In this document: positions 12,586 through 41,300 of the stretch, in pieces
Layout of the letters: each line of letters starts with the position of its first letter
How positions within the stretch are numbered: the stretch's first letter is position 1
NCBI GenBank assembly: GCA_000004985.1
Contig: GG738903.1
Direction: 5' to 3' (one strand)
Source of the DNA: Naegleria gruberi
Lineage: Eukaryota
DNA length: 64,000 bases
The notes under the pieces: model-generated
The model's input: the letters and a program-made list of their open reading frames with translations, nothing else
Databases searched by the model: none
What the model was told of the DNA's origin: nothing
Position numbers and translations under genes: made by a program

Positions 12586-14319
12586 TTATTGATTAAAAAA
12601 CTGTTTCGAAAGAATTTTGACATCTTTTTCTGCAAAATCCAAGTCTGTGAATATTTCCAATCTTTCCTGAGGAGTGAATTTGACTAAATGGTTGCATAAT
12701 TGTTTCACAAAAGCCAATTTGGAAGATTTTTTGAAAATTGGAAAGCAAGCTTTACAAAAAGCAACAATTTCTTCATCTGAAACAGTTAGAGAAATAATTC
12801 GTTCCTCAAGCATATTGATGGTATTTTCAGGAAATCCCAAACGATGTCCGTATGAGAACAATTCCAGTAAATTATTTTCATCCAGTTTTTCAAACTTTCC
12901 AGTGTAAATAAAATTGCACAACTCTTGAATAACTGAAAAGTTGCATCCTTGAATTTCAAGTGTTGGAATTTCATCATGGAGAGCGGATTCTTTCATTCTT
13001 TCTGTTTCATCGAAATTAGAGTTGAGTAAAATATTGAAAAACATGGATCGTTCCGATAAGAAGTCTTTGTGACATAGTATTGATTCTGTAGATTCAACAA
13101 AGAAAACCTCTTCTAGATAATTCTCAATTTTGATTTGGACATTACACAAACTTCGTTGCAATTTCTCAAACTTGGACCTACTTTCAAAGGAGCTGTGGAA
13201 AATACAACCTTTCAAGTCCTTCTTGAATAGTTCATCTGATTCCTTCATTGCAATGTTAATATCCTTTCTATGATCCCTGAATATATCTACAAAATTATAC
13301 ATTCCCAAGCTTTCCATCCAATCACAATAGTCTTGCTTTTGAGTGAATCTTTCCAAACTTTCTAATTTTGTGCATTTCTTTGGATTTTCCGTTCTCACGA
13401 TACAACCCGTGTAAATCCATACCAGTAGATTATCGAATTGAATTTTGGTCAATGGAACTGGTCCCAAATCAATATGTCGCAACTCTTCTCTTTTAAAAAA
13501 ATCTCTAATTTCAGAATCATCATCTGGTATTAAATTCTTCATTGCATCAAATTCGTCTGTTGGTCTTTTAAAATTTTTCTTTTGATTTACAACCAAGATT
13601 TGTTCCTTAATTTGCTCAATTTTTCTATCATAATCCTTTATCTTCAATGCTTTCTTGTTAATAGAATTGAAATATTTCTCAATCTCCAGTTTTGTTTTCA
13701 AATTAACTATGGCCAATTCATCACTTGTTAAGGTGTAGCTTGTTTTTTGTGGAATAGGTCTCTCCTTATTTACCAGAGCAAAATAGAGTAGCATTGGCCA
13801 TCTCTTCAAAATAATCCACCAATGACAGTAGTAAATTGTATCCTCCTCATTCTTTCCGAATCTAATTCTAATAGTCAAATCACTCTCTTCTGGTTTAGTT
13901 CCATAAATAACCCTCCTTGCCATTTTCATCATGAATAGATCGAGTGGCTTGAACTGATCTTGTTCATACGTTTGTTCACCAATATCTTCACAATCCCCAT
14001 TTTTCATTTTGAACATCTTTAGTCCTTCATATGAATTATAAACTCTCAACAATTCTCTAACTCGTAATGACAAGGCATTCATATAACACCTTGCATTTTT
14101 ATCATCACGAGCTCCCAATTCCGATAAATATTTGACCAAATTCAAATGTCCACATAAACAAGCATAATAAAGTGGTGTATTTCCATACCGATCGGGTTTA
14201 TGCAAGTCTGATATTTTAATTGTGGCTCGGACCCTATTCAAATCTCCAACTTTGCAAAATGAATAAATATCGCTCTTTGGAGAGAGTGGAGAGGTTAGCC
14301 CTACTCGTTGTTGATACAT
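12586..14319 (-). CDS. Ankyrin-repeat plus tandem BTB/POZ domain protein (ABTB1/BPOZ-like)
   Basis: Ankyrin motif GNTPLYYACLCGHLNLVKYLSELGA. Two BTB-like blocks (DLTIRIRFGKNEEDTIYYCHWWIILKRWPMLLYFA… and ESILCHKDFLSERSMFFNILLN…IPTLEIQGCNFSVIQELCNFIYTG). The track start at 14343 is a GTG codon; the first ATG (MYQQRVGL) is at 14319. Confidence 0.6.
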   Translation of the reverse strand: MYQQRVGLTSPLSPKSDIYSFCKVGDLNRVRATIKISDLHKPDRYGNTPLYYACLCGHLNLVKYLSELGARDDKNARCYMNALSLRVRELLRVYNSYEGLKMFKMKNGDCEDIGEQTYEQDQFKPLDLFMMKMARRVIYGTKPEESDLTIRIRFGKNEEDTIYYCHWWIILKRWPMLLYFALVNKERPIPQKTSYTLTSDELAIVNLKTKLEIEKYFNSINKKALKIKDYDRKIEQIKEQILVVNQKKNFKRPTDEFDAMKNLIPDDDSEIRDFFKREELRHIDLGPVPLTKIQFDNLLVWIYTGCIVRTENPKKCTKLESLERFTQKQDYCDWMESLGMYNFVDIFRDHRKDINIAMKESDELFKKDLKGCIFHSSFESRSKFEKLQRSLCNVQIKIENYLEEVFFVESTESILCHKDFLSERSMFFNILLNSNFDETERMKESALHDEIPTLEIQGCNFSVIQELCNFIYTGKFEKLDENNLLELFSYGHRLGFPENTINMLEERIISLTVSDEEIVAFCKACFPIFKKSSKLAFVKQLCNHLVKFTPQERLEIFTDLDFAEKDVKILSKQFFNQ

Positions 14320-14364
14320 TTTTTTCTGATGAACTTGTTGCACACGAGGTTCTGATTTGTAAAG

Positions 14365-19989: not shown

Positions 19990-20886
19990 TTATTCAACAA
20001 CATCACCACCATTAACATGAATGGTTTGACCAGTTACGTATGAAGAATCCTTACTTGCCAAGTAGACATAAGCTGTGGCGCATTCAAATGGTTGACCAGC
20101 TCGACCCAAAGGAGTAGATTTACCAAATTCCTTCATCTTATCCTCAGGGAATGTACTTGGAATAAGTGGAGTCCAGATTGGACCAGGAGCAACACTATTG
20201 ACAAGAATACCTCTTGAAGCCAAATTACTTGCCAATGATCGAGTGAAGGTAGTGATTGCTCCCTTAGTGGAAGAGTAATCCAATAAGACATCCTTGCCTC
20301 TGTAGGAAGTTACACTGGTAGTATTGATGATTCTACCGGTTTGATCTGGAAGATACTTGAGTGCAGCTCTTGCCATGTAGAAATAGGAAAAGATATTTGT
20401 TTTGAAGGTATTTTCCAGTTGTTCATCACTGATATCTGTCAAATCTTGTTGAACAGTCTGAGTAGCTGCATTATTGACGAGAATGTCGAGTTTGGAGAAT
20501 TCCTTAACTGTCTTTTCAACTGCCTGATTACAAAAATCAGAAGTTCTAACATCTCCTGGAATAAGAAGACATTTTCTTCCTTCCTTTTCAATGAGTTGTT
20601 TTGTTTCTTGAGCATCCTTCTCCTCTTCCTTCAAGTAGACAATTGCCACATTGGCTCCTTCTCTGGCAAAGAGGATTGAAACTGAACGTCCAATTCCTGA
20701 ATCACCTCCAGTAATGAGAGCAACCTTGTCACGTAACTTGTTAGATCCTTTGTAATAGTCTGGATCGTCGTATTGTGGAGCAGTGAGCATGACATGCTCA
20801 AGACCTGGTGGTGATTGTTCTGGTTGCTTTCTGACTTCCTCCTTTGAGAATGAGGTTGGTTTGGATGATATTTGGCCAGTTGACAT
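19990..20886 (-). CDS. Short-chain dehydrogenase/reductase, classical SDR (bacterial YghA / general-stress-protein-39-like)
   Basis: 298 aa. Cofactor-binding motif TGGDSGIG, NNAA motif, catalytic YSSTKGA (YxxxK) and PGPIWTPL. The long N-terminal extension before the Rossmann fold is typical of the YghA/GS39 subgroup. True ATG start. Confidence 0.8.
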   Translation of the reverse strand: MSTGQISSKPTSFSKEEVRKQPEQSPPGLEHVMLTAPQYDDPDYYKGSNKLRDKVALITGGDSGIGRSVSILFAREGANVAIVYLKEEEKDAQETKQLIEKEGRKCLLIPGDVRTSDFCNQAVEKTVKEFSKLDILVNNAATQTVQQDLTDISDEQLENTFKTNIFSYFYMARAALKYLPDQTGRIINTTSVTSYRGKDVLLDYSSTKGAITTFTRSLASNLASRGILVNSVAPGPIWTPLIPSTFPEDKMKEFGKSTPLGRAGQPFECATAYVYLASKDSSYVTGQTIHVNGGDVVE

Positions 20887-21081: not shown

Positions 21082-22175
21082 TTATCTTCTGAAAGTATTC
21101 ATTCTATTGATATTATTCATAGTATTTTGTTGATGCATTCTTTGCATGTTCTGGCTATGAATATTTTGATGCATTCTCATATTGTCGTGCATTCTGTTCA
21201 TGTTTTGATGATGCATTCTCATGTTATTCTCGTTGGTTCTGCGATTTTGCTCATTGGTTCTATGGATATTTTCATTCATTCGTCTAATATTTTCTCTATG
21301 TATTTCGTTACTTCTGTTAATTGATTCGTTCGTTCTACGGATGCTATCATGTAATCTTCTATTCTCCTCAGCTCTTCTCATGTTATCAAAAACACTATTG
21401 AAATGCTGATCATCGTTATCATCATCATCATTGGCGTAGTATTGAGCTTCTCCTGAGCCATCCATATAAATAGTTCCTCCATTCGACAAATCAACAGGTT
21501 GACCATTAATGTACATTGTAAATCCAGAATTTCGCTGAGGTGGTACATATTCATTCGATTCAGCACCCTCTTGTTGCTCTTGTTGTTGAGGTGGAACATA
21601 TGATTGAGGTTGCTGTTGTCCATCATTCACATAATATTGAGAATAGCCAGCATTTCCATTCGAGACTTGATAAGGCTGAGCATTGTTAAAGTTAACATAA
21701 TTGCCACCAGCAAACATATTATTTCCAAAACCAAACACTAATCCATTATTATTATTATTTGAGCTAGTTCCATTCTCCTGGGCAACCAATCCAGGAATCA
21801 ACAAAACGTCAAATATCTGTCCCACTCCACACAATCCAAATGTGAACAAGTAAACAATACCCATCGTCCACGAATTCAAATAAAATCGATGAATACCAAA
21901 TAAACCAAAGAAACAAAGTGCCCACAGCACATACGCCTATTTTGGAAATATTTAAAAAAAAACAACATGTAAGATAACGACATGATAGATCACATAATAA
22001 ACCGAACATGCAAATTTCATAATAACATAATTAATAAATATAAATAATATTCGTGATGATGATGAACCAATCGCCACGTAATTTTTTGGTTCATGAAAGT
22101 GGGTAAATGGAGCATCCAAAGTGTTGGCGGGAAAAAAATCAAATTCGCGAAACGTACCATAGTAATGTCTTTCAT
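21082..22175 (-). CDS. TM2-domain protein with a long N/Q-rich prion-like region and a basic His/Arg/Asn repeat tail; probable upstream micro-exon
   Basis: TM2 domain AYVLWALCFFGLFGIHRFYLNSWTMGIVYLFTFGLCGVGQIFDVLLIPGL (two helices around a DRF-like HRFYL). The track start at 21930 is a GTG codon. The frame is open upstream to a stop that sits in an AATAG acceptor (exon starts ~21936). The nearest upstream ATG with a donor (ATGAAAGACATTACTATG|GTACGT, 22158..22175) would give a 221-nt intron. The C-terminal half holds N/Q/G/Y-rich low complexity and imperfect HRxNxNxRR(T/M)NE repeats. Confidence 0.55.
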
Positions 22176-22314: not shown

Positions 22315-23321
22315 TCAAAACGAAACATCGCCACTGTATCCTTGTGAATAAGGCCCTTCTCCTGCTATTGTTTCAATAATTCCATTCCTTGATACCTTTC
22401 GAATAGCATTATTGCCACTATCGGATATATACATTTCATCGTTGGAAGAAACAAAAACATGCATTGGATAATTGAGTTGGGCATTTGTTGCTGAGCTACC
22501 ATCTCCTTCAAATCCATCATTTCCATTTCCTGCTATTGTTTTAATTATTCCACTTTTAGAACCTTTCTAATTCTAAAATTATTAGAATCTGTAATATAAA
22601 TTTCTCCATTAGAGTTTACAAATGTGCTCATTGGACAATTGAGTTGAGCCTGAGTGGCCAATCCGTCATCTCCACTGAATCCTTCGTTTCCATTTCCAGC
22701 TATCGTTTCAATTATTCCACTTTTCGAAACCTTTCTAATACGATGATTTGCTGAATCCGTAATATATACCTCTTCGTTGAATACAAATACATTCATTGGA
22801 CAGTTGAGCTCGGCATTAATTGCCAAACCACCATCTCCTGAACATCCTAATTTTCCATTTCCTGCTATTGTTACAATATTTCCGTTTTGTAAAACCTTTC
22901 TAACTCGATTATTCAGATAATCCGAAATATAAACTTCTCCATTTTCTGAAACAAACACACTCGTTGGATAATTTAATTTGGCATTAATAGCTGGACCATT
23001 ATCTCCTTCAAATCCACCTTCTCCATTTCCAGCAATCGTTTCAATTATTCCATTATTCGAAACCTTTCTAATTCGATGATTATGATAATCTGCAATATAT
23101 ACTTCCTCCTTTACAACAAACACACCATTTGGATAATTTAATTTAGCATTAATTGCCAATCCACCATCACTCGAAAACCCCAATTCACCATTCCCTGCTA
23201 CTGTCATGATTTTCTGATTATTTAATTTTCTAATTCGATGATTGTTGCAATCAGCGATAAAAATTTCATCATTTGATGAAACAAAAACGCACGTGGGTCC
23301 GAAGAGTTGAATTGGAGGCAT
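22315..23321 (-). pseudogene. NHL-repeat (six-bladed beta-propeller) protein gene interrupted by a single-base frameshift near 22559; pseudogene or sequencing error
   Basis: ORF 22545..23321 holds five or six repeats of the form IETIAGNG..GFSGDGGLAINAKLNYP..VFV..NGEVYI.D..NHRIRKV. The next two repeats continue downstream in the -1 frame to a stop at 22315-22317. At the join the sequence reads AGAAAGGTTCTAAAAGTGG where every other repeat has …AAGGTT TCT AAA AGT GG (IRKVSKSG), so one T is missing. Confidence 0.55.
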
Positions 23322-23439: not shown

Positions 23440-24459
23440 CGATCGAGGAATAATAAACTAAAACTAAAGGAAAGTCTATACATTAATTTAGTTTTAATTA
23501 TTATTTACAAATTATTAGTTTTTAAATGACTATTTTCCAAGGGCCTTATTTAACAATTCCACAGTGTGTTTCCAAACTGTTTCTCTGATACTATCGCTAT
23601 GACTCTTTGTCACTTTTGCTGGCTCTCCATGTTCATCCAATAAATGGAAACCCTTCCGTGTCGATTCTGAACTTAATCCCTTGTAAATATTGTCGGCACA
23701 TTGTTCTGGAGATCTGGCAAAGTTTTGGAAGAAACGTGTGGTCCATCTCACGACAGCTGGCATTTCACGTCCCCATTGTGTGGCAATGAATCCAGGAGCT
23801 TGATGAATGAATGCAATATTTTGATTGCCTTCCTCTTTGGATAATTGATCCATGGCTAGATCATTGTAAAATCCAGCTGCATCTGCTGCATTCTTCAATG
23901 TAAAATTGTGTTTCAAATCCAAATCATCCAATTTAGTGTAAGGTGAATGAACACCAGCTGATAAAACAGTCAAGACTCTCACATCTGAATTCTTTGATGT
24001 CAATCTCAATAAATCTTGCAATTGTCTCACAAACATAACTCTTCCATAATAATGAAGTGCCAATTTAACATCAATTCCTTCCTTTGTTTCTGTTCTTCCA
24101 TTCATACTTGCAATTCCCTGTGAGAGAACACAATAATCCAATCGATCATGATTTTGTTTATATTCCTCACACACTTTTTCAATATCCTTCATGAGAGAGG
24201 CATCCACTTTGATCATTTCAAACTTTCCTTCTGGATTCAATTTTTTCATTTCTTCAATAATTTCCTTTCCTGCTTCTTCACTTCTTCCCATAATTGAAAC
24301 ATTGAATTTTTGAGAGGCAAATTTAATTGCCAATGCTCTTCCGATACCTGATGTACCTCCAACACACAGTGCTTGTTTAGTAGCCATTTTTGTTTCTGAT
24401 AAATTTGTAGAGATGATTGTTGTTTTGTTTTTTTTTGAAATTATTTGAGAGATTTGCAA
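23440..24459. repeat. Copy A of a ~1.1-kb inverted segmental duplication (SDR gene plus proximal promoter plus ~75 bp of 3' UTR)
   Basis: Reverse complement matches 36088..37110. It is identical over the 5' two-thirds of the CDS and the proximal promoter, ~95% over the 3' UTR, and visibly diverged in the 3' third of the CDS. Confidence 0.8.
23530..24387 (-). CDS. Short-chain dehydrogenase/reductase, inverted paralog A of 36176..37036
   Basis: N-terminal TGxxxGIG-type motif (VGGTSGIGRALAI), NAG/Rossmann core, Tyr/Lys region. The first ~205 codons and ~75 bp of 5' flank are nucleotide-identical to the + strand copy at 36176. The ORF-track extension to 24576 is an open frame upstream of the conserved ATG (MATKQALCVGG) and is not supported by the paralog. 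Confidence 0.75.
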   Translation of the reverse strand: MATKQALCVGGTSGIGRALAIKFASQKFNVSIMGRSEEAGKEIIEEMKKLNPEGKFEMIKVDASLMKDIEKVCEEYKQNHDRLDYCVLSQGIASMNGRTETKEGIDVKLALHYYGRVMFVRQLQDLLRLTSKNSDVRVLTVLSAGVHSPYTKLDDLDLKHNFTLKNAADAAGFYNDLAMDQLSKEEGNQNIAFIHQAPGFIATQWGREMPAVVRWTTRFFQNFARSPEQCADNIYKGLSSESTRKGFHLLDEHGEPAKVTKSHSDSIRETVWKHTVELLNKALGK

Positions 24460-25574
24460 GAAGTTTTTATTCGCTGCGTTCATCCGGGAAGACTTTGAGG
24501 CATAAGTACAAAAAAATTGATAAACACCACTGGTCCCAGCACAATTTGACCCTCCACCATTGTTAATCTGAGTCATCTCTCATCAGGAAATCTTCTCTCT
24601 TCAACCTCTGCGTATTGGATGGTACTTCTCTTGTTTGAATGTATTTTGAAGGTTCCAGTTGATAACCGAAACGATATGTTCTGAGCACTCTTTCCAGCAT
24701 AGAAGCTTTGAAAGTATGCTCAGCACATAATTGACATCATGATAAATTATTGGAAAGTGAGCAATCATGGTTGTTCAACACTGTAGTTCCTTCTTTCGTC
24801 AGCAAAATGAACAGAAAGTTATACCACTCACCATATTTATAAATAATCTATTTTTATTAATTGCTATTTTTATTATTTTTTAATTGAAATTAATTTTTAT
24901 TAACATTAATTTCAATTAAAAAAAAATGCCTAAACCAAATCATCTGATCCTGAACCATGGCAGTTAATGAAGAAAGTAAGTAGTTTATAGTAAATAATTA
25001 ACAATTTGAACAGAATTAATTGAGTTATTCAGTGAAACTCAAAAACAAGCCTAAATCCAATTTAAACTAAAACAATTGATCAACGTAAGTTTTTTTATCA
25101 TTTCAACTTTTATTTAACTAAAAACCTAGTCCGCACAATCAAACCAGCAACAGCAGTCATTAACAAATGTAAGTTTAAACCGATTTATTTATTGATGATT
25201 AACATATTTTTTTGTTAAATATCTGAAATTTTCAACTGTCACAAAGAGAAGGGTATTGAGTTGATTCATTAGTTGTAAGTCACTTTTCTTTTATTGTTAT
25301 TAATTCAAAACTAACAAGAATACATTATTGAAGAGCCCTTAACTGACCCGAAGAGGATGATCTTGAAGAAGGCTGACAGAACTCATGGTGCTTCAAATCA
25401 ACTGTTTCTTCTTGGCCTTTTCGTTAGCACTGAATCAATGATGATTAAGCTTATATTACGGCTGTGATGTGGTGCCATTTTTTTGTTGATTACTTCCAAT
25501 TTATTTAGGTTGACCACAACTATTTTCAATAAACATTTTTCTTCAACTACAAGTCAAATCAAGTCTTCTGAGAA

Positions 25575-32510: not shown

Positions 32511-35390
32511 TTATTTAAATATTTGTACACGATGATTGTGATAATCTACTACAACGAGATGACCTTCACTTGTGATTGAAACTCCATTAGGTCCATCGAA
32601 TTGTCCATCTTCAGAACCATAACATCCAAATTGTTTGATAATTACACCCTCTCTCAAGTTCCAAATTTGAATTCTATTGTTTGCATAATCGCAAATGGCT
32701 GCAAAATTGAGACCAATATTTTTCTTCAAACAACAAATACCAGTTGGGTCACATTCAGAATTTTCTTGTTTCTTGACAGAGAATTTTCTAACAAAGGTAC
32801 CATCCAATGTAAAAACTTGGACTCTACAATTGTATCTATCAGTGATTACCAAATTACCATCAATGTCAATATCCAAACTGTTAGGTCCATAGAAATAACC
32901 TCCTTCCATTTCTGGATTAGTACCATTAGTTCCAAAAGATTTGAGGAATGAGCCATACTTGTCAAACATTTGAATTCTGTGATTATGATGGTCACATACA
33001 ATAATTTTACCAGGTATTTGAGACTTGGTCTCTGAAACAATAATACCAGTTGGATAACTGAAATGACCATACTCTGCTCCCTTTGAACCAAACTTTCCAA
33101 CCTCAGTTCCAGACTTATCAAAGGCATACACACAATGATCATCACTAGTAACAAGGATTACACCCTCCTTGGCATCAAAAGTGACACCGTATGGTTTAGG
33201 GACTGAGAACTTTCTCAAAAACTTTCCTTGCTTGTCGAATATTTGAACACGATTGTTCTCATTATCACAAATTATGATATTATCACTCGGATCTATGGCG
33301 ATATCGGTTGGGCTGGAAAATTGACCGTCTTCTGTTCCTTTTCCACCAAAACCTAAAACGAATTTACCCTCAATTTTACATTTGATTTCTTGGGTAGGTA
33401 TTACAGGAGTGTTTGGACTACTGTGAACGGATGGAGAGCTTGTACAGCTTGAGGATGATACATTACTATTAGCATTGGATGAAGGAGCATTCTTTGGACC
33501 AATGGCACCAAGTTTGTCTATTGATTCCATGAGTTCTTTCATCGAATCAAAATTTACACAAACATCCAAAGTATCAGACAAGTAACTTCTATCAATCTTT
33601 CTTAAATTTTCTTGGAATTGTTGAACAAGTACAGGAATGAGTAAACTCTTCTTGGTCTTGGATTGAATAAATTCAGCCAAGTCCATCTTGGAAAGATTTT
33701 CCATAAAACCGTCTGTCAAAAACTTAATTTGAGATAATTGTTGCATTCCACTGTTCAAAATCTTTTCACAAATTTCATCTTCACAACAAATTTTCCACTT
33801 TTCTGTCAATTCCTTTCTCTTTTGAGCCAACCTCTTTTCCAAGATATCAAAATTTTCATTGATCGACTTGACGCCATCTTCATAAGTGTGAGATATTGTT
33901 CCCTTGTCACGAGCTAATTTTTCCATTTTTTCTGAAATGTTTTGTTGCATTTGGAAAATTTGGTTTTTAAGCTCTTGTTTTTCTTTTTGATAAACTTCTT
34001 CAACTAGGTCACAGTCATGTCCCTTGTGCTTTGAAATGGCACAGATAGCACAAATCAATTCATCTCCACAAGTATGACACCAAGTGTTCAACTTTTGGTC
34101 TTTGTGGGTTTCACAACAATCAGTCAATGGTCTTAAATTATGGTGGTTAGTACTGACACTTGTTGGGGAAGTAACAGTTTTGTCCACATTTGATGATACT
34201 GATGATGAATTAGAAACAGTGCCACTAGTATTAGAAACAGTGCTACTAACAGACAAGGAAGCAGACAAAGTAGAAGCAATGGATGAAATTGCCGAACCGA
34301 TCGAATTGGCGAATCCTGATGATGTAGTCGGAGTGGAAGCTACACTTCCAGTTGGTGTTGAAGTGTTGCTACTCATTGATACTGTAGCTACTGATGGTTT
34401 GTTTGTTGTTGTTGCACTTGTATTGGTAACAGGGATAAGACCAACAGGTGTTCCGTTTGAGAATTTTCTTTTTGATTGTGGAGATCCAGGTGTAGCTTGG
34501 ACAGATGAATTATTGGCTGTGGTTGGAGAACCTTGTGGTTGTGGCTCCTTCTTTGGGATGTGAAGTCGAGGAGAGGTGTTAGATGGACTTTGGTGTTGTT
34601 GTTGCTGCTGTTGTTGTTCCATAATTTGGTGCATGGCTGATCCGAGCATAATAGGAGAGGATGAAAGAAGGGCAGCTGCACTAATATTCGAAGTTGAAGT
34701 TCCATGAACTGGAGTCATGGATGATGGAGTACTGGTAGAGTTGATTCCTTGTGATTGAACTGAAGATGGTAGCGTCTTGATATTAATTGGTGTCAAGTTG
34801 AGAATATCACTCTCCTTGCTGGATGGACTCATCATGATATTATTATTATTCATTGTTATTCCTTTTGATGGACTTCCAATAATTGCAACTCCACTATTGA
34901 AATTGTTAATTGGAGTATTATTTGATGATTGTGTTGTTATTGTTGAAGAGGATGATGAAGATGGAGAGTTTCTTGTTGGTGTTGCACTTGAAGGTGATTG
35001 ATATTGTTGAGTGGGAGAACGAACGCTTCCATTGGTTGGAGTGGTTGTTGGAGTTGAGTGATCAATCACTGTTGGTGAATTATTGGTAGGACTCTTCATA
35101 TTATGTGCTGGAGGTGGACTAGATGAAAACAGATGAAGCGCCTGAGGTCTTCTTTCATCCAAAATACATTCTTCACTCTCATCGACTTGTTTTACATTAT
35201 CAATAATAACTTCTTCTAACATTGGAGATTGTGGTTCAATATCTATTGATCTATTGTTGGAGGAGGAGGTAGAAGAACTGTGGGTATGATGTTGAAAATC
35301 ATCAGAATCATCAAAGTGAAACAATTCTTCTTCTACAATAGTTTCCGAATATCCTGTATGTTGTTGAAAATCATCAGCCTGATCAGACAT
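32511..35390 (-). CDS. B-box / coiled-coil / NHL-repeat protein (TRIM-NHL architecture without a RING finger; Brat/NCL-1-like) with a ~400-aa Ser/Thr/Asn/Gln-rich N-terminal region
   Basis: 959 aa. B-box-type zinc finger CETHKDQKLNTWCHTCGDELICAICAISKHKGHDC. ~150-aa coiled coil. Six NHL repeats (…GQFSSPTDIAIDPSDNIIICDNENNRVQIFDKQGKF…). No C3HC4 RING pattern upstream. Homopolymeric Q, N and S runs. Confidence 0.75.
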   Translation of the reverse strand: MSDQADDFQQHTGYSETIVEEELFHFDDSDDFQHHTHSSSTSSSNNRSIDIEPQSPMLEEVIIDNVKQVDESEECILDERRPQALHLFSSSPPPAHNMKSPTNNSPTVIDHSTPTTTPTNGSVRSPTQQYQSPSSATPTRNSPSSSSSSTITTQSSNNTPINNFNSGVAIIGSPSKGITMNNNNIMMSPSSKESDILNLTPINIKTLPSSVQSQGINSTSTPSSMTPVHGTSTSNISAAALLSSSPIMLGSAMHQIMEQQQQQQQHQSPSNTSPRLHIPKKEPQPQGSPTTANNSSVQATPGSPQSKRKFSNGTPVGLIPVTNTSATTTNKPSVATVSMSSNTSTPTGSVASTPTTSSGFANSIGSAISSIASTLSASLSVSSTVSNTSGTVSNSSSVSSNVDKTVTSPTSVSTNHHNLRPLTDCCETHKDQKLNTWCHTCGDELICAICAISKHKGHDCDLVEEVYQKEKQELKNQIFQMQQNISEKMEKLARDKGTISHTYEDGVKSINENFDILEKRLAQKRKELTEKWKICCEDEICEKILNSGMQQLSQIKFLTDGFMENLSKMDLAEFIQSKTKKSLLIPVLVQQFQENLRKIDRSYLSDTLDVCVNFDSMKELMESIDKLGAIGPKNAPSSNANSNVSSSSCTSSPSVHSSPNTPVIPTQEIKCKIEGKFVLGFGGKGTEDGQFSSPTDIAIDPSDNIIICDNENNRVQIFDKQGKFLRKFSVPKPYGVTFDAKEGVILVTSDDHCVYAFDKSGTEVGKFGSKGAEYGHFSYPTGIIVSETKSQIPGKIIVCDHHNHRIQMFDKYGSFLKSFGTNGTNPEMEGGYFYGPNSLDIDIDGNLVITDRYNCRVQVFTLDGTFVRKFSVKKQENSECDPTGICCLKKNIGLNFAAICDYANNRIQIWNLREGVIIKQFGCYGSEDGQFDGPNGVSITSEGHLVVVDYHNHRVQIFK

Positions 35391-36087: not shown

Positions 36088-37110
36088 CAAATCTCTCAAA
36101 TAATTTCAAAAAAAAACAAAACAAACAACATCTCTCTCATAGCTAATCATCTCTACAAATTTATCAAGAAACAAAATGGCTACTAAACAAGCACTGTGTG
36201 TTGGAGGTACATCAGGTATCGGAAGAGCATTGGCAATTAAATTTGCCTCTCAAAAATTCAATGTTTCAATCATGGGAAGAAGTGAAGAAGCAGGAAAGGA
36301 AATTATTGAAGAAATGAAAAAATTGAATCCAGAAGGAAAGTTTGAAATGATTAAAGTGGATGCCTCTCTCATGAAGGATATTGAAAAAGTGTGTGAGGAA
36401 TATAAACAAAATCATGATCGATTGGATTATTGTGTTCTTTCACAGGGAATTGCAAGTATGAATGGAAGAACAGAAACAAAGGAAGGAATTGATGTAAAAT
36501 TGGCACTTCATTATTATGGAAGAGTTATGTTTGTGAGACAATTGCAAGATTTATTGAGATTGACATCAAAAAATTCAGATGTGAGAGTCTTGACAGTTTT
36601 ATCAGCTGGTGTTCATTCACCTTACACCAAATTGGATGATTTGGATTTGAAACATAACTTTACATTGAAGAATGCAGCAGATGCAGCTGGATTTTACAAT
36701 GATCTCGCCATGGATCAATTATCCAAAGAGGAAGGCAATCAAAATATTGCATTCATTCATCAAGCTCCTGGAATTGTGGCTACTCAATGGGGTCGTGATT
36801 TTCCAACTGTTTTGAGATGGGCATGTGAAGTTGTCAAGGTAGTGGCTGCTAAATCTCCTGAGAAATATGCTGAATATACTTATAATGCATTGAGTTCAGA
36901 TTCTACACGAAAGGGCTTCCATTTATTGAATCAATACGGAGAGCCAGCAAGTGTGACAAAGAGTCATACTGATAATATCAGAGAAACAGTTTGGAAACAC
37001 ACTGTAGAATTGTTAAATAAGGCCCTTGGAAAATAATCATTTAAAAACTAATAATTTGTAAATAATAAACTAAAACTAAATTAATTTCCTAATTTCATTT
37101 GGATAGCTCT
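36088..37110. repeat. Copy B of the ~1.1-kb inverted segmental duplication carrying the SDR gene
   Basis: See copy A (23440..24459). Shared proximal promoter …AAATCTCTCAAATAATTTCAAAAAAAAACAAAACAA…ATCATCTCTACAAATTTATCA(A)GAAACAAAATG. Shared 3' UTR TTAAATAAGGCCCTTGGAAAATA(G/A)TCATTTAAAAACTAATAATTTGTAAATAATAA…. Confidence 0.8.
36176..37036 (+). CDS. Short-chain dehydrogenase/reductase, inverted paralog B of 23530..24387
   Basis: 286 aa. Residues 1-205 are identical to copy A (MATKQALCVGGTSGIGRALAIKFASQKF…FIHQAPG). The C-terminal ~80 residues are ~70% identical (IVATQWGRDFPTVLRWACEVVKVV… versus FIATQWGREMPAVVRWTTRFFQNF…). Confidence 0.75.
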   Translation: MATKQALCVGGTSGIGRALAIKFASQKFNVSIMGRSEEAGKEIIEEMKKLNPEGKFEMIKVDASLMKDIEKVCEEYKQNHDRLDYCVLSQGIASMNGRTETKEGIDVKLALHYYGRVMFVRQLQDLLRLTSKNSDVRVLTVLSAGVHSPYTKLDDLDLKHNFTLKNAADAAGFYNDLAMDQLSKEEGNQNIAFIHQAPGIVATQWGRDFPTVLRWACEVVKVVAAKSPEKYAEYTYNALSSDSTRKGFHLLNQYGEPASVTKSHTDNIRETVWKHTVELLNKALGK

Positions 37111-37169: not shown

Positions 37170-38051
37170 TTAAAGAGAGTAAACTTCGTAATCTAGAGTG
37201 GTAAATTCACGAGTTGATCCAGTCAAGTAATCCTTTCCCAAATTTGAATAAGTGAATGGATTAGTGAAACTTTTCTTGGTACCTCTAGCAATGAAAATAT
37301 CATGTCCACCTCCAAAAGTTGGATGATCAACAGATCTATGATAAACTGAATAATTGACATATGCAGAATGTGGTCCATCTTGAATCAATTTCTTGAATCT
37401 TTCATCTCTCTTTGGTCCAATTAAACTAAATAAGAAAGCTTTGGAATCTGGGAAGAAATCCAACATTGCTGAACTCCAACTCACTGAAGTATAACCTCCA
37501 AAGATAGCTCCTGAGCTTGCCTTAATAATTGTTACAGTTGGTCCTTGATTATCACATTTTGAATGGAAAGATCTGGCTCTGAATCCATCCTTAGATGCAT
37601 TATAAAGTAATTTCATTGGTCTAGTTTTAACATCTTTCAACAATTCATCAATAAATCTCTTAGATTGATTTGCAGTTAAAAAAGTTGATTTTGACAAATC
37701 TCCAATTAATCCCAAATCCACCTTTGATTCCGTTTTCCTCTTACTTGTTCTCTTTTTAAGAATTTTCAGTTTAACGCTCTTTGATTTTGTTGGGTTGCCA
37801 TCCTTATTAGCATTCAAGGTAACCCGAGGAGCATTTCTATTCCTAACAACAACTGCTTGTTTACGCATCACCTTCTTACCATGTTGGTTTTGTTGTTGTT
37901 TTGATCGTTTTATTAATCTTGCTGTTGCCTTAATAGAAGCCTTGGTAGTTCCCTTAGCTTTCTTCCCCTCAACAGCAGAAACAACAACAACACTCAACAC
38001 GACCAACAGCAACAACAATAACAAGAAGAAAACGCCTCTCCTCATCATCAT
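37170..38051 (-). CDS. TLDc-domain protein with signal peptide and a Lys-rich basic region
   Basis: Signal-like MMMRRGVFFLLLLLLLVVLSVVVVSAVEG. C-terminal LLYNASKDGFRARSFHSKCDNQGPTVTIIKASSGAIFGGYTSVSW… is the TLDc pattern (LLYR.S.DGF…FH..CD..GPT.T.I……FGGYT…W). Confidence 0.6.
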   Translation of the reverse strand: MMMRRGVFFLLLLLLLVVLSVVVVSAVEGKKAKGTTKASIKATARLIKRSKQQQNQHGKKVMRKQAVVVRNRNAPRVTLNANKDGNPTKSKSVKLKILKKRTSKRKTESKVDLGLIGDLSKSTFLTANQSKRFIDELLKDVKTRPMKLLYNASKDGFRARSFHSKCDNQGPTVTIIKASSGAIFGGYTSVSWSSAMLDFFPDSKAFLFSLIGPKRDERFKKLIQDGPHSAYVNYSVYHRSVDHPTFGGGHDIFIARGTKKSFTNPFTYSNLGKDYLTGSTREFTTLDYEVYSL

Positions 38052-38308: not shown

Positions 38309-41300
38309 ATGTCGGCATCAGCAGATTATGATTCAAAGAAGAGAAAAATTTTGGAGGCTTCTGATTCAGTTGATCAAATTGTTTCGGATGAAAATGATAG
38401 ACTCATTGATCAAGTTTCTGATGCGCTTCATCGATTGACTCTACAAAAACGAGCTGATTCAATGGTAATGGCATTGGTCGATGATAAAAGACAAGTTTCA
38501 TCATCATCATCTTCCCGTGATGAAAGGCTTGATTCTCTCCAGCAAATGCAACAAGAAAAAGTTGTTGTGTTGAAAGTTGGTGGTAAGTTCTATCAACTTC
38601 ATCTTTATTCGAATTTAATATATTTTGATCATCCATAGGAAAATTCTTTAACACAACAATGAGAACTTTGGTGGGAGAAAGAGGAAGAAAATTAGAAAAT
38701 TTGGATAATGACGAAGAAATGAAGGAAGGTGAAGAAGAAAAACAAGATGAAGACGAAAACGATGAAAAAGAAGAAACAAAAGATGATGATTGTGAATATG
38801 TCACAGCACAACCGAACTTGTTCAAAGTCATGTTTGATTCTGGAATTGGCATTGAGAGAGATGAAGCAAACAAGTCTGCAATTTCATTCCCTGATAGAAA
38901 TCCAGACTATTTCGAATATGTTTTAGAGCACTTGAGACAGGGAGGAAAAGTTAAATCGCTTGGTGTTGAGAAATTGAATGCCAATCAGTTGGAGAACATT
39001 TTGGAAGAGTCCAATTATTTTGCAACTGAAAAGTTATCAGAGTACATTCTATTCTTACTCGAAAAGTATCACAAGTTACATGGGTCGAATTTGGGCAAGT
39101 TTGCTGAAACAGAAGATCAGAATTCAGAATCTAAATCATTAATAGTACCTCAAAAGGTTGAAATTCCAATTGAACAAGTTAGACAAAGACTCCTTCTAGT
39201 TGAAGATTCCATCAATGAATCAAAGAAGGTGGCCAAAGAATTATCACTCAAATTAGTTAGCAAGTACCAGAACTTCATCTTGGGAAATGATTTAGAGACT
39301 GACCTGTCTGTTAAAATTGATGTTTCTGGTCAAATTTTCACAATTCCTTTTGCCATTTTGCAACAGCATGAAACTTTCCTCATTTCCAAGTACATTTTAG
39401 CACCAAATTTTTGTTTGAATGAGAATGGGTGCATCTTTATTGATAGAAGTCCAAAGTTATTCGCCCTTATTCATTCATATATGATTAGTGGCAAATTTAC
39501 TCATTTCCCAAAAAACCTCTCAAGGGAAAAGAAACATCAATTGAAGCAAGAAGCAGAATTTTATGGTGTCATCTCTATTATTAATGATTATCTTGATCCA
39601 TTACGTTACCCAGTTGAAAAGATTGGCCAAGACAATATTGAATTGAAAGAAAAGGAAGACAAATTGAGAGAAATATATGCAAAGGAAAGAGAATCACCAT
39701 TATTGAACGATCCATATCTATTACTATCACCTCTCTTCCAAAATTTAGAAGAAATTAATGATCAAGAAAAGTACAGAATTGATTTTGGAGAATGTCCTAA
39801 ATTATTAGATTTATCTGACAAAACCAGATATTCCAGACAAGTTTCTAAACCTCAACTTTTAACTAATTTGGGCGCTTTCAAATTGAATTGGCATAGATTC
39901 ACGCAAGGAGCACTCAAAGGTCTGGATTGGAACAATGTAATTGCTGCAGGTGAGTTCAATTAATTCTTCGATTTTAATTTATAATATTTAAATTAGGTGG
40001 TGGTATTCTTGCTTGTTGTTTGAAACCTGACACTTCCGAAAATATCAGTACCGTTGGTCTTAATTTACCACGCAATGGTTCTGAAAGAAAAAAGTCTTCC
40101 AAACCAATGATGGATGATAATGAAGAGAATGATGTTTCAGATTTTGGTTATTGGAAAAGATTGAAAAAAGAATCATCAGCAGAGGAAGGTGAGTCATTAA
40201 CACAAACAAAGCTTGATAAGGATAGATATCTTAGGGGGGACACGACTATATACAGGTTTCTTAGTTACACAACAGACGATAAGAGAACAAATTTGAGAAA
40301 TCTTGAGAAAATATATACACCCATCATTTCTAAAACAACAGCTGTTCCTGTGGTGGATGAAAAGAAAGAAGACGCTTTTTTCATTCCAGAGGCAAATATT
40401 CCAAGCTCATTTAAAAATTCAGATATTGATCTCTTTCTGTATGCTCTAAGTGAAGAACAAGCAGAAGAAAAAATCAATCACATTTATCAAACCATTAAGA
40501 AAAATATGAGATCTAGATTAATTACAAAATATTCTGAAAAAACTAATAGTCAAGATTTCTTAAGCGGAGAAATGGTCAGGGCTTATGAGGATGGTGTTAT
40601 CAGAACTGAAGAATGTACGGTTAATGATGATGTTCTGGTTGTTAGAACTAAATTTGCTGTTACATTCTATTGTTACAAACTCAGACCAATTCAAGTTGTT
40701 TTGAGAATTTACAAATCACCTGCTGAAGTTTTGTTAGGTTTTGACATTGATTGTGCTACTATGGGGTATGATGGATATCAAGTTTGGTCAAGTGAAAGAG
40801 CAAGAAGAGCTTTAATGTATCATACTAATCTTGTTGATGTTGATAGACAATCTACAACTTATGAATATAGATTATACAAGTACAGTAAGAGAGGTTTCTC
40901 TGTTTCAATTCCAGGTTATGATACTGCTAAAGTTCAAAATCAATTGTTGCAATATCCACGAAGATATTCATTTAATTCTACTGAGTATTTATTGCATGGC
41001 TTGGCAAGACTTATTGCTTTCGATAACTCTTGTCGCTCTAGATACCCACAACGTGTTTTAGGCGCGTATGACAGAGATAACCAAGCACAGTCAATTGAGG
41101 AAAATTCAGTACTTGTACTTTCTGGTGAGCTAAATGTCAAGTCAGATTATCTTGATCTGAACATCATCAAATCACACAAATACCCTCCAAGTATTATCTT
41201 TGAAACTTTGGAAAGAGCTCGCAAGGTTGTTGCCAAGATTAATTTAGAAAAAGAAGATACCTTTACGCGCTCACTTGATACGTTTGTTTTAGACAGCAGA

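What the first reader, a model, noticed from the sequence alone, without database searches (positions are those of the whole stretch)
32511..35390. RING-less B-box/coiled-coil/NHL protein with a 400-residue S/T/N/Q-rich head
Brat/NCL-1-type architecture (translational repressor family in animals): one B-box, a coiled coil and a six-blade NHL propeller, but no RING. The disordered head has homopolymer Q, N and S runs. A second, simpler NHL propeller gene lies 10 kb away. If the organism is not an animal, a TRIM-NHL-like protein is phylogenetically notable.
Basis: partly seen in the sequence, partly recalled or inferred. Interest (0 to 1): 0.5.

Follow-up and report, generated by a model that had tools for sequence, protein, structure and literature searches.

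The report
RING-less TRIM-NHL-like protein in Naegleria
This is a real, already catalogued but unstudied gene of the amoeboflagellate Naegleria gruberi. Its B-box, coiled coil and NHL propeller match the animal TRIM-NHL family, which the TRIM survey read here lists only for animals, but it has no RING finger and lacks the basic RNA-binding surface of LIN-41/TRIM71.

Summary
Window 32511-35390 (-) is one uninterrupted 959-aa ORF. It is 100% identical to N. gruberi NAEGRDRAFT_81452 / UniProt D2VW67, "uncharacterized protein AM26".

The layout is:
- a 415-aa S/T/P/N/Q-rich head;
- one B-box2 with all eight zinc ligands;
- a 106-residue helix plus return helices;
- a disordered linker;
- a six-blade NHL propeller.

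No RING is present here or in the four orthologues (N. fowleri, N. lovaniensis, Willaertia magna, one metagenome sequence).

The B-box/coiled-coil and the NHL were tested separately, and each points to TRIM-NHL proteins. The best solved B-box-CC match is TRIM3. The best propeller matches are Thin, TRIM71 and TRIM2/3.

The NHL tree does not resolve the sister group, so vertical descent and old horizontal transfer both stay open.

The translational-repressor reading is not supported. The propeller's top face is conserved but acidic, aromatic and His-rich, and the LIN-41 basic pocket is absent.

Most likely this is a dimeric, non-catalytic adaptor that binds a protein partner. It is a new non-animal member of a known kind, of moderate interest.

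The parts
32511..35390 (-). Complete single-exon CDS (959 aa plus stop) of N. gruberi NAEGRDRAFT_81452 / AM26
   Evidence: ORF list. 100% identity over 959/959 aa to P0388 = XP_002671770.1 / D2VW67.
34146..35390 (-). N-terminal head, aa 1-415. It is low-complexity and rich in S/T/P/N/Q, presumed disordered (not modelled here). Five short conserved islands: DDFQQ 6-10, DESEE 70-74, LTPIN 199-203, ATPGSP 299-304, ANSIGSAI 361-368.
   Evidence: Composition and homopolymer runs. Only 6% of positions are invariant across 5 orthologues, and the islands were found. Alignment A1.
34005..34121 (-). B-box type 2 zinc finger, aa 424-462. Ligands: C426, H429, C438, C441, C447, C450, H455, H458.
   Evidence: Pfam zf-B_box 23.0 bits, E 9e-5. 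All eight ligands are invariant in the 4 aligned orthologues. Model pLDDT 93-96. Foldseek gives rmsd 1.0-1.7 A to the MuRF1, TRIM5 and MID1 B-box2 structures. PDB profile hits to TRIM3, MID1/2, TRIM5, TRIM28 and TRIM63.
33516..34004 (-). Coiled-coil region, aa 463-625. One long helix (aa 463-568) is followed by three shorter return helices (about 571-581, 584-608, 618-624). A conserved Cys cluster sits at C535, C536 and C541.
   Evidence: AF2 secondary structure. Foldseek top hits are the TRIM28, TRIM72 and TRIM5alpha B-box-coiled-coil structures over 215-225 columns. The profile aligns 129 positions into the TRIM3 coiled coil.
33381..33515 (-). Disordered S/N/P-rich linker, aa 626-670
   Evidence: pLDDT below 50 for model residues 221-256. 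4% of positions invariant among orthologues.
32514..33380 (-). Six-blade NHL beta-propeller, aa 671-959. The N-terminal strand 677-682 completes blade 6. Blades 2 and 5 are degenerate in sequence.
   Evidence: Pfam NHL 1.4e-29. PDB phmmer hits: Thin 2.4e-44, TRIM71 5e-43, TRIM3 2e-38, Brat 7e-25. 24 strands, pLDDT above 90 over most of the propeller. Foldseek TM (target-normalised) 0.88-0.90 to Thin, TRIM71 and TRIM2/3.

Best explanation
The locus is the single-exon N. gruberi gene AM26 (NAEGRDRAFT_81452). It encodes a RING-less relative of the animal TRIM-NHL proteins.

Shown:
- a B-box2 zinc finger;
- a TRIM-type long helix with fold-back helices;
- a six-blade NHL propeller, in the canonical order;
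- conservation as a single gene in Naegleria and Willaertia.

Inferred mechanism:
- As in solved TRIM coiled coils, the long helix would pair antiparallel with a second copy. That would place a B-box at each end and give each dimer two NHL propellers.
- With no RING, the protein should not recruit an E2 by itself. It would act as a non-catalytic scaffold or adaptor.
- The propeller's conserved top face is acidic, aromatic and His-rich. It most likely binds a basic protein or peptide partner, not RNA backbone. Among solved structures the propeller is closest to Thin, the fly TRIM32 orthologue.
- The long disordered head carries short conserved acidic-aromatic and S/T-P motifs that could recruit or regulate further partners.

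Sub-confidences: identity and architecture about 0.9. Homology of the whole module with TRIM-NHL about 0.7. Scaffold with a protein ligand about 0.4.
For: Identity: 959/959 aa match to XP_002671770.1 / D2VW67.

Conservation:
- Orthologues in N. fowleri (918 aa), N. lovaniensis (906 aa), W. magna (971 aa) and one metagenome sequence have the same layout and the same N-terminus.
- The N. fowleri gene is also a single exon, on an 840-kb contig.

B-box and coiled coil tested alone, with no NHL in the query:
- An exhaustive hmmsearch found 310 hits. Of the top 149, 40 carry an NHL domain. Among those of at least 550 aa, 37 of 55 do.
- The best solved-structure match is TRIM3, an NHL-class TRIM. It is the only hit whose alignment runs 129 positions into the coiled coil.
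- Foldseek top hits are all TRIM B-box-CC structures.

NHL tested alone:
- The closest solved propellers are Thin, TRIM71, TRIM2/3, then Brat and Mei-P26.
- The heterolobosean domains were held out of both profiles. The four Naegleria-type ones score 87-124 bits higher on a profile built from NHL domains of RING/B-box/filamin proteins than on one built from named prokaryotic NHLs. Willaertia scores +39 and phage NHLs +1 to +45.

Ligand face: top loops are 65% invariant against 43% for bottom loops (Fisher p = 0.011).

No RING.

Probable expression: an N. fowleri protein whose best Swiss-Prot hit is human TRIM3 was detected by mass spectrometry. It was 6.4x and 3.9x more abundant in highly pathogenic trophozoites (PMC4082629).
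Against: - The NHL distance tree does not place the heterolobosean clade robustly. Its sister is TRIM-like in 49% of bootstraps and unlabelled in 30%, and it includes a named prokaryote in 13%.
- Phage and bacterial NHL propellers are as similar in raw identity (33-36%) as animal ones (31-33%).
- The NHL share among B-box-CC hits shows no rank trend, so database make-up could contribute to it.
- Dimerisation, the lack of E3 activity and the kind of ligand are inferred and were not tested.
- An aromatic, His-rich face could still bind RNA bases, as part of the Brat surface does.
- The link between the N. fowleri proteomics entry and this orthologue is unverified.
Confidence: 0.5

Rival explanations
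1. Brat/LIN-41-like post-transcriptional repressor. The NHL top face binds mRNA elements and the head recruits repression machinery.
For: The architecture resembles Brat. From memory, Brat also lacks a RING and has a long low-complexity N-terminus. The nearest solved propellers include the RNA binders TRIM71, Brat and Mei-P26. The top face is conserved and contains Tyr and His residues that could stack on bases.
Against: The LIN-41 RNA-contacting basic residues (PMC5908797) are not conserved. The top loops have 6 K/R against 14 D/E, net -8, the 4th percentile of 208 NHL domains. TRIM71 orthologues score +2 to +3, and +4 in the inner ring. The same paper notes that RNA-binding surfaces are not conserved even between TRIM-NHL subfamilies, so RNA binding cannot be inferred from the fold.
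Confidence: 0.22
2. Independent (convergent) assembly. A generic eukaryotic B-box-coiled-coil was fused in the heterolobosean lineage to an NHL propeller acquired from bacteria or phages, so the likeness to TRIM-NHL is architectural only.
For: B-box and NHL domains each occur widely. Phage tail-associated NHL propellers reach 33-36% identity over the full domain. The highest-scoring hits outside Naegleria in the first search were multi-propeller proteins, one of them labelled with a prokaryote-type name (YncE). The NHL tree is unresolved. The same window holds an unrelated bacterial/teneurin-type NHL gene.
Against: Both modules, tested separately, prefer TRIM-NHL proteins. TRIM3 is the top solved match for the B-box-CC. 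Most long B-box-CC hits carry NHL. The NHL scores 87-124 bits better (Willaertia +39) on the TRIM-associated profile. Domain order and spacing match the filamin-less TRIM-NHLs.
Confidence: 0.12
3. Ubiquitin or SUMO ligase after all. The B-box itself might carry E3 activity, or the protein might act as the substrate receptor for a separate RING or cullin partner.
For: The B-box has a RING-like cross-brace fold with all eight ligands. From memory, unverified here: some B-boxes (MID1 B-box1, TRIM16) have been reported to support ubiquitination.
Against: No RING or U-box anywhere in five orthologues. No evidence of a partner. B-box E3 activity is the exception.
Confidence: 0.12

Closest known systems
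Animal TRIM-NHL proteins without a filamin domain, such as TRIM32 / Drosophila Thin (Abba) and C. elegans NHL-1
   Same: Order is B-box2, long coiled coil with fold-back helices, linker, six-blade NHL. The closest solved propeller is Thin (E 2.4e-44, TM 0.90, 31% identity).
   Different: No RING. A 415-aa disordered head sits where the RING would be. Found in a heterolobosean, whereas Marin 2012 lists this TRIM subfamily (C) as 'Animals' only.
Drosophila Brat (RING-less TRIM-NHL translational repressor)
   Same: RING-less B-box / coiled coil / NHL with a long low-complexity N-terminus (Brat features from memory). The propeller is recognisably related (E 7e-25, TM 0.80-0.82).
   Different: One B-box here (Brat has two, from memory). 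Only 24% identity. The acidic top face does not look like an RNA-binding surface. Brat is a more distant match than Thin, TRIM71 or TRIM2/3.
TRIM3/TRIM2 and TRIM71/LIN-41
   Same: TRIM3 is the best solved match for the B-box-CC (E 3.6e-6 over 129 positions). TRIM71 and TRIM2/3 are among the best propeller matches.
   Different: These proteins have a RING and a filamin domain. The LIN-41 basic RNA pocket is absent here.
RING-less B-box(x2)-CC-NHL proteins from metagenomes (P0291, P0361, P0377)
   Same: RING-less B-box, short coiled coil and NHL. P0361/P0377 are the most frequent NJ sister of the heterolobosean clade (55 of 200 bootstraps).
   Different: Two B-boxes, no long head, about 500 aa. 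The source organisms are unknown. They occur as tandem gene arrays or in contigs dense with ORFs that have no Pfam hits.

Membership tests
TRIM / RBCC family | N-terminal RING finger | tested here: not met
   One Cys in aa 1-415. 0-3 Cys upstream of the B-box in four orthologues. No RING Pfam hit. The N-terminus is conserved among orthologues, so no upstream exon is missing.
TRIM / RBCC family | B-box zinc finger (type 2, C-H-C-C/D-C-C-H-H) | tested here: met
   All eight ligands present and invariant in the 4 aligned orthologues. Pfam 23.0 bits against a cutoff of 24.1, E 9e-5. Precomputed PF00643 hits in orthologues. Rmsd 1.0-1.7 A to solved B-box2 domains.
TRIM / RBCC family | Coiled coil directly after the B-box, forming an antiparallel dimer | tested here: inconclusive
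   The long helix (106 residues) plus return helices is predicted and matches the TRIM28, TRIM72 and TRIM5 B-box-CC structures. Dimerisation could not be modelled or measured.
TRIM-NHL (class VII / Marin subfamily C) | C-terminal six-blade NHL propeller | tested here: met
   Pfam NHL 1.4e-29. 24 strands, pLDDT above 90 over most of the propeller. TM 0.88-0.90 to Thin, TRIM71 and TRIM2/3.
TRIM-NHL (class VII / Marin subfamily C) | NHL and B-box-CC group phylogenetically with TRIM-NHL members | tested here: inconclusive
   The NJ bootstrap sister is unstable. Profile scoring favours the TRIM-associated NHL by 39-124 bits. The B-box-CC best matches TRIM3 and NHL-bearing proteins. No ML tree was possible.
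Brat/NCL-1 type | Two B-boxes and no RING (definition from memory) | tested here: not met
   No RING, which fits, but only one B-box.
LIN-41/TRIM71-type RNA-binding NHL | Basic pocket on the top face (Arg/Lys before the motif Pro and after the motif Asp of blades 1-2, plus Tyr) | tested here: not met
   Equivalent positions are S693, N710, K732, D751 and Y779. The inner ring has net charge -2, against +4 in TRIM71 orthologues. The mapping is by motif alignment, not by superposition.
Pfam NHL repeat (PF01436) | Score above the gathering threshold | tested here: met
   101 bits against a cutoff of 20.

The most novel reading that the evidence does not exclude
The B-box / coiled-coil / NHL module may predate animals. 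On this reading AM26 and its Willaertia orthologue are survivors of an ancestral eukaryotic TRIM-NHL-like lineage. The RING was either added later in holozoans or lost in Heterolobosea.

Naegleria would then offer a non-animal system for asking what TRIM-NHL proteins did before development and stem-cell control existed.

A variant is that the module spread between amoebae and other eukaryotes through giant viruses. A Sylvanvirus protein aligns over 429 columns of the model, and P0291 sits in a dense contig whose ORFs mostly lack Pfam hits.
Probability: 0.3. Interest if true: 0.65.

Novelty: new member of a known kind. Interest (0 to 1): 0.42.

Why it matters
TRIM-NHL proteins (LIN-41/TRIM71, Brat, TRIM2/3, TRIM32) are major regulators of animal development, stem cells and muscle. 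The one TRIM family survey read here lists the subfamily as animal-only.

A conserved, single-copy relative without a RING in Heterolobosea has two consequences:
- It either pushes the origin of the module far back or documents an old inter-kingdom transfer.
- It provides a natural non-ligase version for separating scaffold functions from E3 functions.

There is also a possible practical angle. A TRIM3-like protein, probably the N. fowleri orthologue, was among 22 proteins more abundant in highly pathogenic trophozoites of the brain-eating amoeba.

The sequence is already in public databases, so what is new is the interpretation.

Tried and rejected
1. Dictyostelid origin. I guessed this from the composition, and the 99-100% Naegleria matches rejected it.
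2. 'The reference annotation missed the B-box.' This is only half true. The 354-aa model NAEGRDRAFT_54709 on a 12-kb scaffold splices out the head, B-box and coiled coil. The main scaffold carries the correct 959-aa model.
3. Hidden upstream RING exon. Rejected, because the upstream DNA is non-coding and the N-terminus is conserved in orthologues.
4. NJ phylogeny of 208 NHL domains with 200 bootstraps. The heterolobosean clade came out 200/200, but its position is unresolved.
5. Rank enrichment of NHL among B-box-CC hits. There is no rank trend, so I use it only as consistency evidence.
6. Identifying the source organisms of the nearest metagenome relatives. Only one contig (L013) gave an answer, an unplaced AT-rich opisthokont, from its RPS8 gene. 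The others stay unknown.
7. Searching giant-virus and other viral contigs. P0291 found nothing. The NHL profile found only phage tail-associated propellers.
8. Literature searches for TRIM-NHL plus Naegleria or Capsaspora, locus tags, and AM26 gave nothing relevant. The Naegleria genome paper is not held. The supplement of PMC4082629 held no ORF identifiers.
10. Local synteny with N. fowleri. The immediate neighbours' annotated domains differ, so this was uninformative.
Full report
**What is there**

Window 32511-35390 (minus strand) is one uninterrupted ATG-to-stop ORF of 959 aa. The DNA upstream of the ATG is AT-rich, non-coding and full of stops. Base composition across the gene matches the rest of the window, about 34% GC.

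The protein is 959/959 identical to N. gruberi NAEGRDRAFT_81452 / XP_002671770.1 / UniProt D2VW67, named 'Uncharacterized protein AM26', on a 304-kb scaffold. The window is therefore reference N. gruberi DNA, from a heterolobosean amoeboflagellate and not an animal.

A second database entry, NAEGRDRAFT_54709, has 354 aa and sits on a 12-kb scaffold. It is a 99%-identical allele whose gene model joins aa 1-74 directly to the propeller, which removes the head, B-box and coiled coil.

From memory, the 'AM' gene names come from the amoeboid-motility phylogenetic-profile set in the 2010 Naegleria genome paper. That paper is not in the library, so this is unverified.

**Anatomy**

- **Head, aa 1-415.** S 22%, T 12%, P 9%, N 8%, Q 6%, with S6, N4 and Q7 runs and a single Cys. 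Only 6% of positions are invariant across five orthologues. Five short islands are kept: DDFQQ, DESEE, LTPIN, ATPGSP and ANSIGSAI.
- **B-box, aa 424-462.** The pattern is C-x2-H-x8-C-x2-C-x5-C-x2-C-x4-H-x2-H. All eight ligands are invariant in the four aligned orthologues. Pfam zf-B_box scores 23.0 bits against a cutoff of 24.1, and three orthologues carry the precomputed hit. The AF2 model has pLDDT 93-96 here and superposes on the MuRF1, TRIM5 and MID1 B-box2 structures at 1.0-1.7 A.
- **Coiled coil, aa 463-625.** A 106-residue helix is followed by three return helices. Foldseek's top PDB hits are all TRIM B-box-coiled-coil structures: TRIM28/KAP1, TRIM72 and TRIM5alpha.
- **Linker, aa 626-670.** Disordered.
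- **Propeller, aa 671-959.** Six blades and 24 strands, with the N-terminal strand closing blade 6 and pLDDT above 90 over most of the domain. Pfam NHL scores 1.4e-29.

**Conservation**

Orthologues with the same layout and the same N-terminal motif exist in four sources:
- N. fowleri, FDP41_013741, 918 aa
- N. lovaniensis, C9374_013588, 906 aa
- Willaertia magna, KAL9653258.1, 971 aa
- one JGI metagenome sequence, 845 aa

None has a RING. An exhaustive profile search with the B-box-CC alone found only these below 1e-10. Together with the one orthologue per species, this suggests a single-copy gene in each species. The N. fowleri gene is likewise a single exon, on an 840-kb contig.

**Is it really TRIM-NHL-like?**

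I tested the two modules separately.

B-box-CC, with no NHL in the query:
- Of the top 149 hits in 1.84 billion representatives, 40 carry an NHL domain. Among those of at least 550 aa, 37 of 55 do, many with a RING. The fraction shows no rank trend, so database make-up may contribute to it.
- Against the PDB, the best match is TRIM3, E 3.6e-6. It is the only NHL-class TRIM among the matches and the only hit whose alignment runs 129 positions into the coiled coil. MID1/2, TRIM5, TRIM28, TRIM63 and TRIM72 match through the B-box and at most the first part of the helix.

NHL alone:
- The closest solved propellers are Thin, TRIM71 and TRIM2/3 (TM 0.87-0.90, 26-33% identity), then Brat and Mei-P26. 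PAL and the designed Pizza proteins are far behind.
- I built one profile from 111 NHL domains of proteins that carry a RING, B-box or filamin domain or an animal TRIM name, and one from 17 named prokaryotic NHLs. The heterolobosean domains were held out of both.
- On the first profile the four Naegleria-type domains score 87-124 bits higher and Willaertia 39 bits higher. Phage NHLs score 1-45 bits higher.

The limits are real:
- A neighbour-joining tree of 208 domains recovers the heterolobosean clade in 200 of 200 bootstraps but does not fix its sister. The sister is TRIM-like in 49% of replicates, unlabelled in 30%, and contains a named prokaryote in 13%.
- The most frequent sister, at 27%, is a pair of RING-less B-box-NHL metagenome proteins.
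- Raw identity to phage tail-associated propellers (33-36%) equals identity to animal propellers.

My reading is that homology of the whole module with TRIM-NHL is likely, at about 0.7. Whether it arrived by vertical descent or by an old transfer that predates the Naegleria-Willaertia split cannot be decided here.

**Function**

Kumari et al. 2018 (PMC5908797) show that LIN-41 binds RNA through a basic pocket (Arg564, Arg581, Arg611, Lys628, Tyr658). They also show that RNA-binding surfaces are not conserved between TRIM-NHL subfamilies.

By motif alignment, those positions fall just before the motif Pro and just after the motif Asp of each blade. In AM26 the equivalent residues are S693, N710, K732, D751 and Y779.

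| Measure | AM26 | Comparison |
|---|---|---|
| K/R vs D/E in top-face loops | 6 vs 14 (net -8) | TRIM71 orthologues net +2 to +3 |
| Rank of that net charge | 4th percentile of 208 NHL domains | set mean 0, sd 4.5 |
| Inner-ring net charge | -2 | TRIM71 orthologues +4 |
| His / aromatic residues in top loops | 7 / 12 | bottom loops 1 / 1 |

The top loops are nonetheless as conserved as the core strands, and more conserved than the bottom loops: 65% against 43% invariant, p = 0.011. The face is therefore probably functional, but it is not built for binding RNA backbone.

I favour a RING-less, probably dimeric scaffold whose propellers bind a basic protein or peptide partner. The head would supply short linear motifs, including acidic DxF-like and S/T-P sites. 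That part is inference only.

The one piece of experimental evidence comes from an N. fowleri proteomics study. A protein whose best Swiss-Prot hit was human TRIM3 was 6.4-fold and 3.9-fold more abundant in two highly pathogenic culture states. It was listed alongside villin, myosin II and severin (PMC4082629). It is probably this orthologue, but I could not verify that.

**Known or new**

The sequence is in RefSeq and UniProt. The N. fowleri and N. lovaniensis orthologues are auto-labelled 'B box-type domain-containing protein'.

I found no paper that discusses a TRIM-NHL-like protein in Naegleria or in any non-opisthokont. Marin 2012 gives the range of the TRIM-NHL subfamily as 'Animals' and only TRIM37-like genes as pan-eukaryotic.

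It is therefore a new, non-animal, RING-less member of a known kind. The find is moderately interesting for TRIM evolution and does not describe a new kind of system.

**Unexplained**

- The conserved Cys cluster CCE[DE]EI[CS] inside the long helix.
- The Ala/Ser/Ile-rich island ANSIGSAI in the head.
- The source organisms of the nearest metagenome relatives.

Noticed in passing
window 22545-23321 (-) and 21082-21930 (-): This is the 'second NHL gene'. It is a 258-aa ORF with NHL and TEN_NHL hits (1e-29) and only 22% identity to the AM26 propeller, so it is of the teneurin/bacterial NHL type. The next ORF downstream on the same strand starts with a TM2 domain. The two may be exons of one membrane protein.
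   Followed up: partly
N. gruberi NAEGRDRAFT_54709 (P0005), not in the window: A 99%-identical allelic copy sits on a 12-kb scaffold. Its 354-aa gene model splices aa 1-74 directly to the propeller and so hides the B-box and coiled coil.
   Followed up: yes
L013 9199-11578 (ENA ERZ778024 NODE_2323); L014: A RING + 2 B-box ORF is followed 85 bp later by a coiled-coil-filamin-NHL ORF. This is a canonical TRIM-NHL gene split by a short intron, in a 28% GC eukaryote, and it lies near a PiggyBac-type transposase. The contig's RPS8 is about 60% identical to many opisthokonts (EukProt 'Opistho-2', early fungi, sponges, Capsaspora), so the organism is an unplaced opisthokont.
   Followed up: partly
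L015 (ENA ERZ24900291 ctg2861l) and L003: A tandem array of at least five RING-less B-box-NHL genes or fragments lies within 21 kb of an unidentified eukaryote. Two members, P0361 and P0377, are the most frequent NJ sister of the heterolobosean clade (27% of bootstraps).
   Followed up: partly
L001 10001-11542 (JGI 3300045996, 74.9-kb contig): P0291 is a RING-less protein with two B-boxes, a short coiled coil and six nearly identical NHL blades. Its contig is densely packed with ORFs on both strands, and almost none has a Pfam hit. It could be a giant virus or a compact protist genome, and I did not resolve which.
   Followed up: partly
L004-L006 (IMG/VR viral contigs): NHL propellers with very regular repeats are 33-36% identical to the AM26 propeller. 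They sit next to or inside large tail or baseplate-like phage proteins. They show that raw NHL identity cannot separate animal from prokaryotic or phage origin.
   Followed up: yes
BFVD entry A0A3G5AIV5 (Sylvanvirus sp.): A giant-virus protein annotated 'TRAF6-like' aligns with 429 columns of the B-box-CC-NHL model (E 9e-26). That is more than the propeller alone, which suggests a TRIM-NHL-like layout in a giant virus. Its sequence was not retrievable here.
   Followed up: no
PMC4082629, Table 4: An N. fowleri protein whose best hit is human TRIM3 was 6.4x and 3.9x more abundant in highly pathogenic trophozoites and was listed among 22 'potential pathogenicity factors'. It is probably FDP41_013741, the orthologue of this gene, but that is unverified.
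   Followed up: partly
window 19990-20886 (-), 23530-24576 (-), 36176-37036 (+): Three short-chain dehydrogenase genes lie within 17 kb, on either side of the two NHL genes. The window also holds BTB and BTB-ankyrin genes (38659-39963, 12586-14343) and a TLDc gene (37170-38051). These look like ordinary eukaryotic genes.
   Followed up: no
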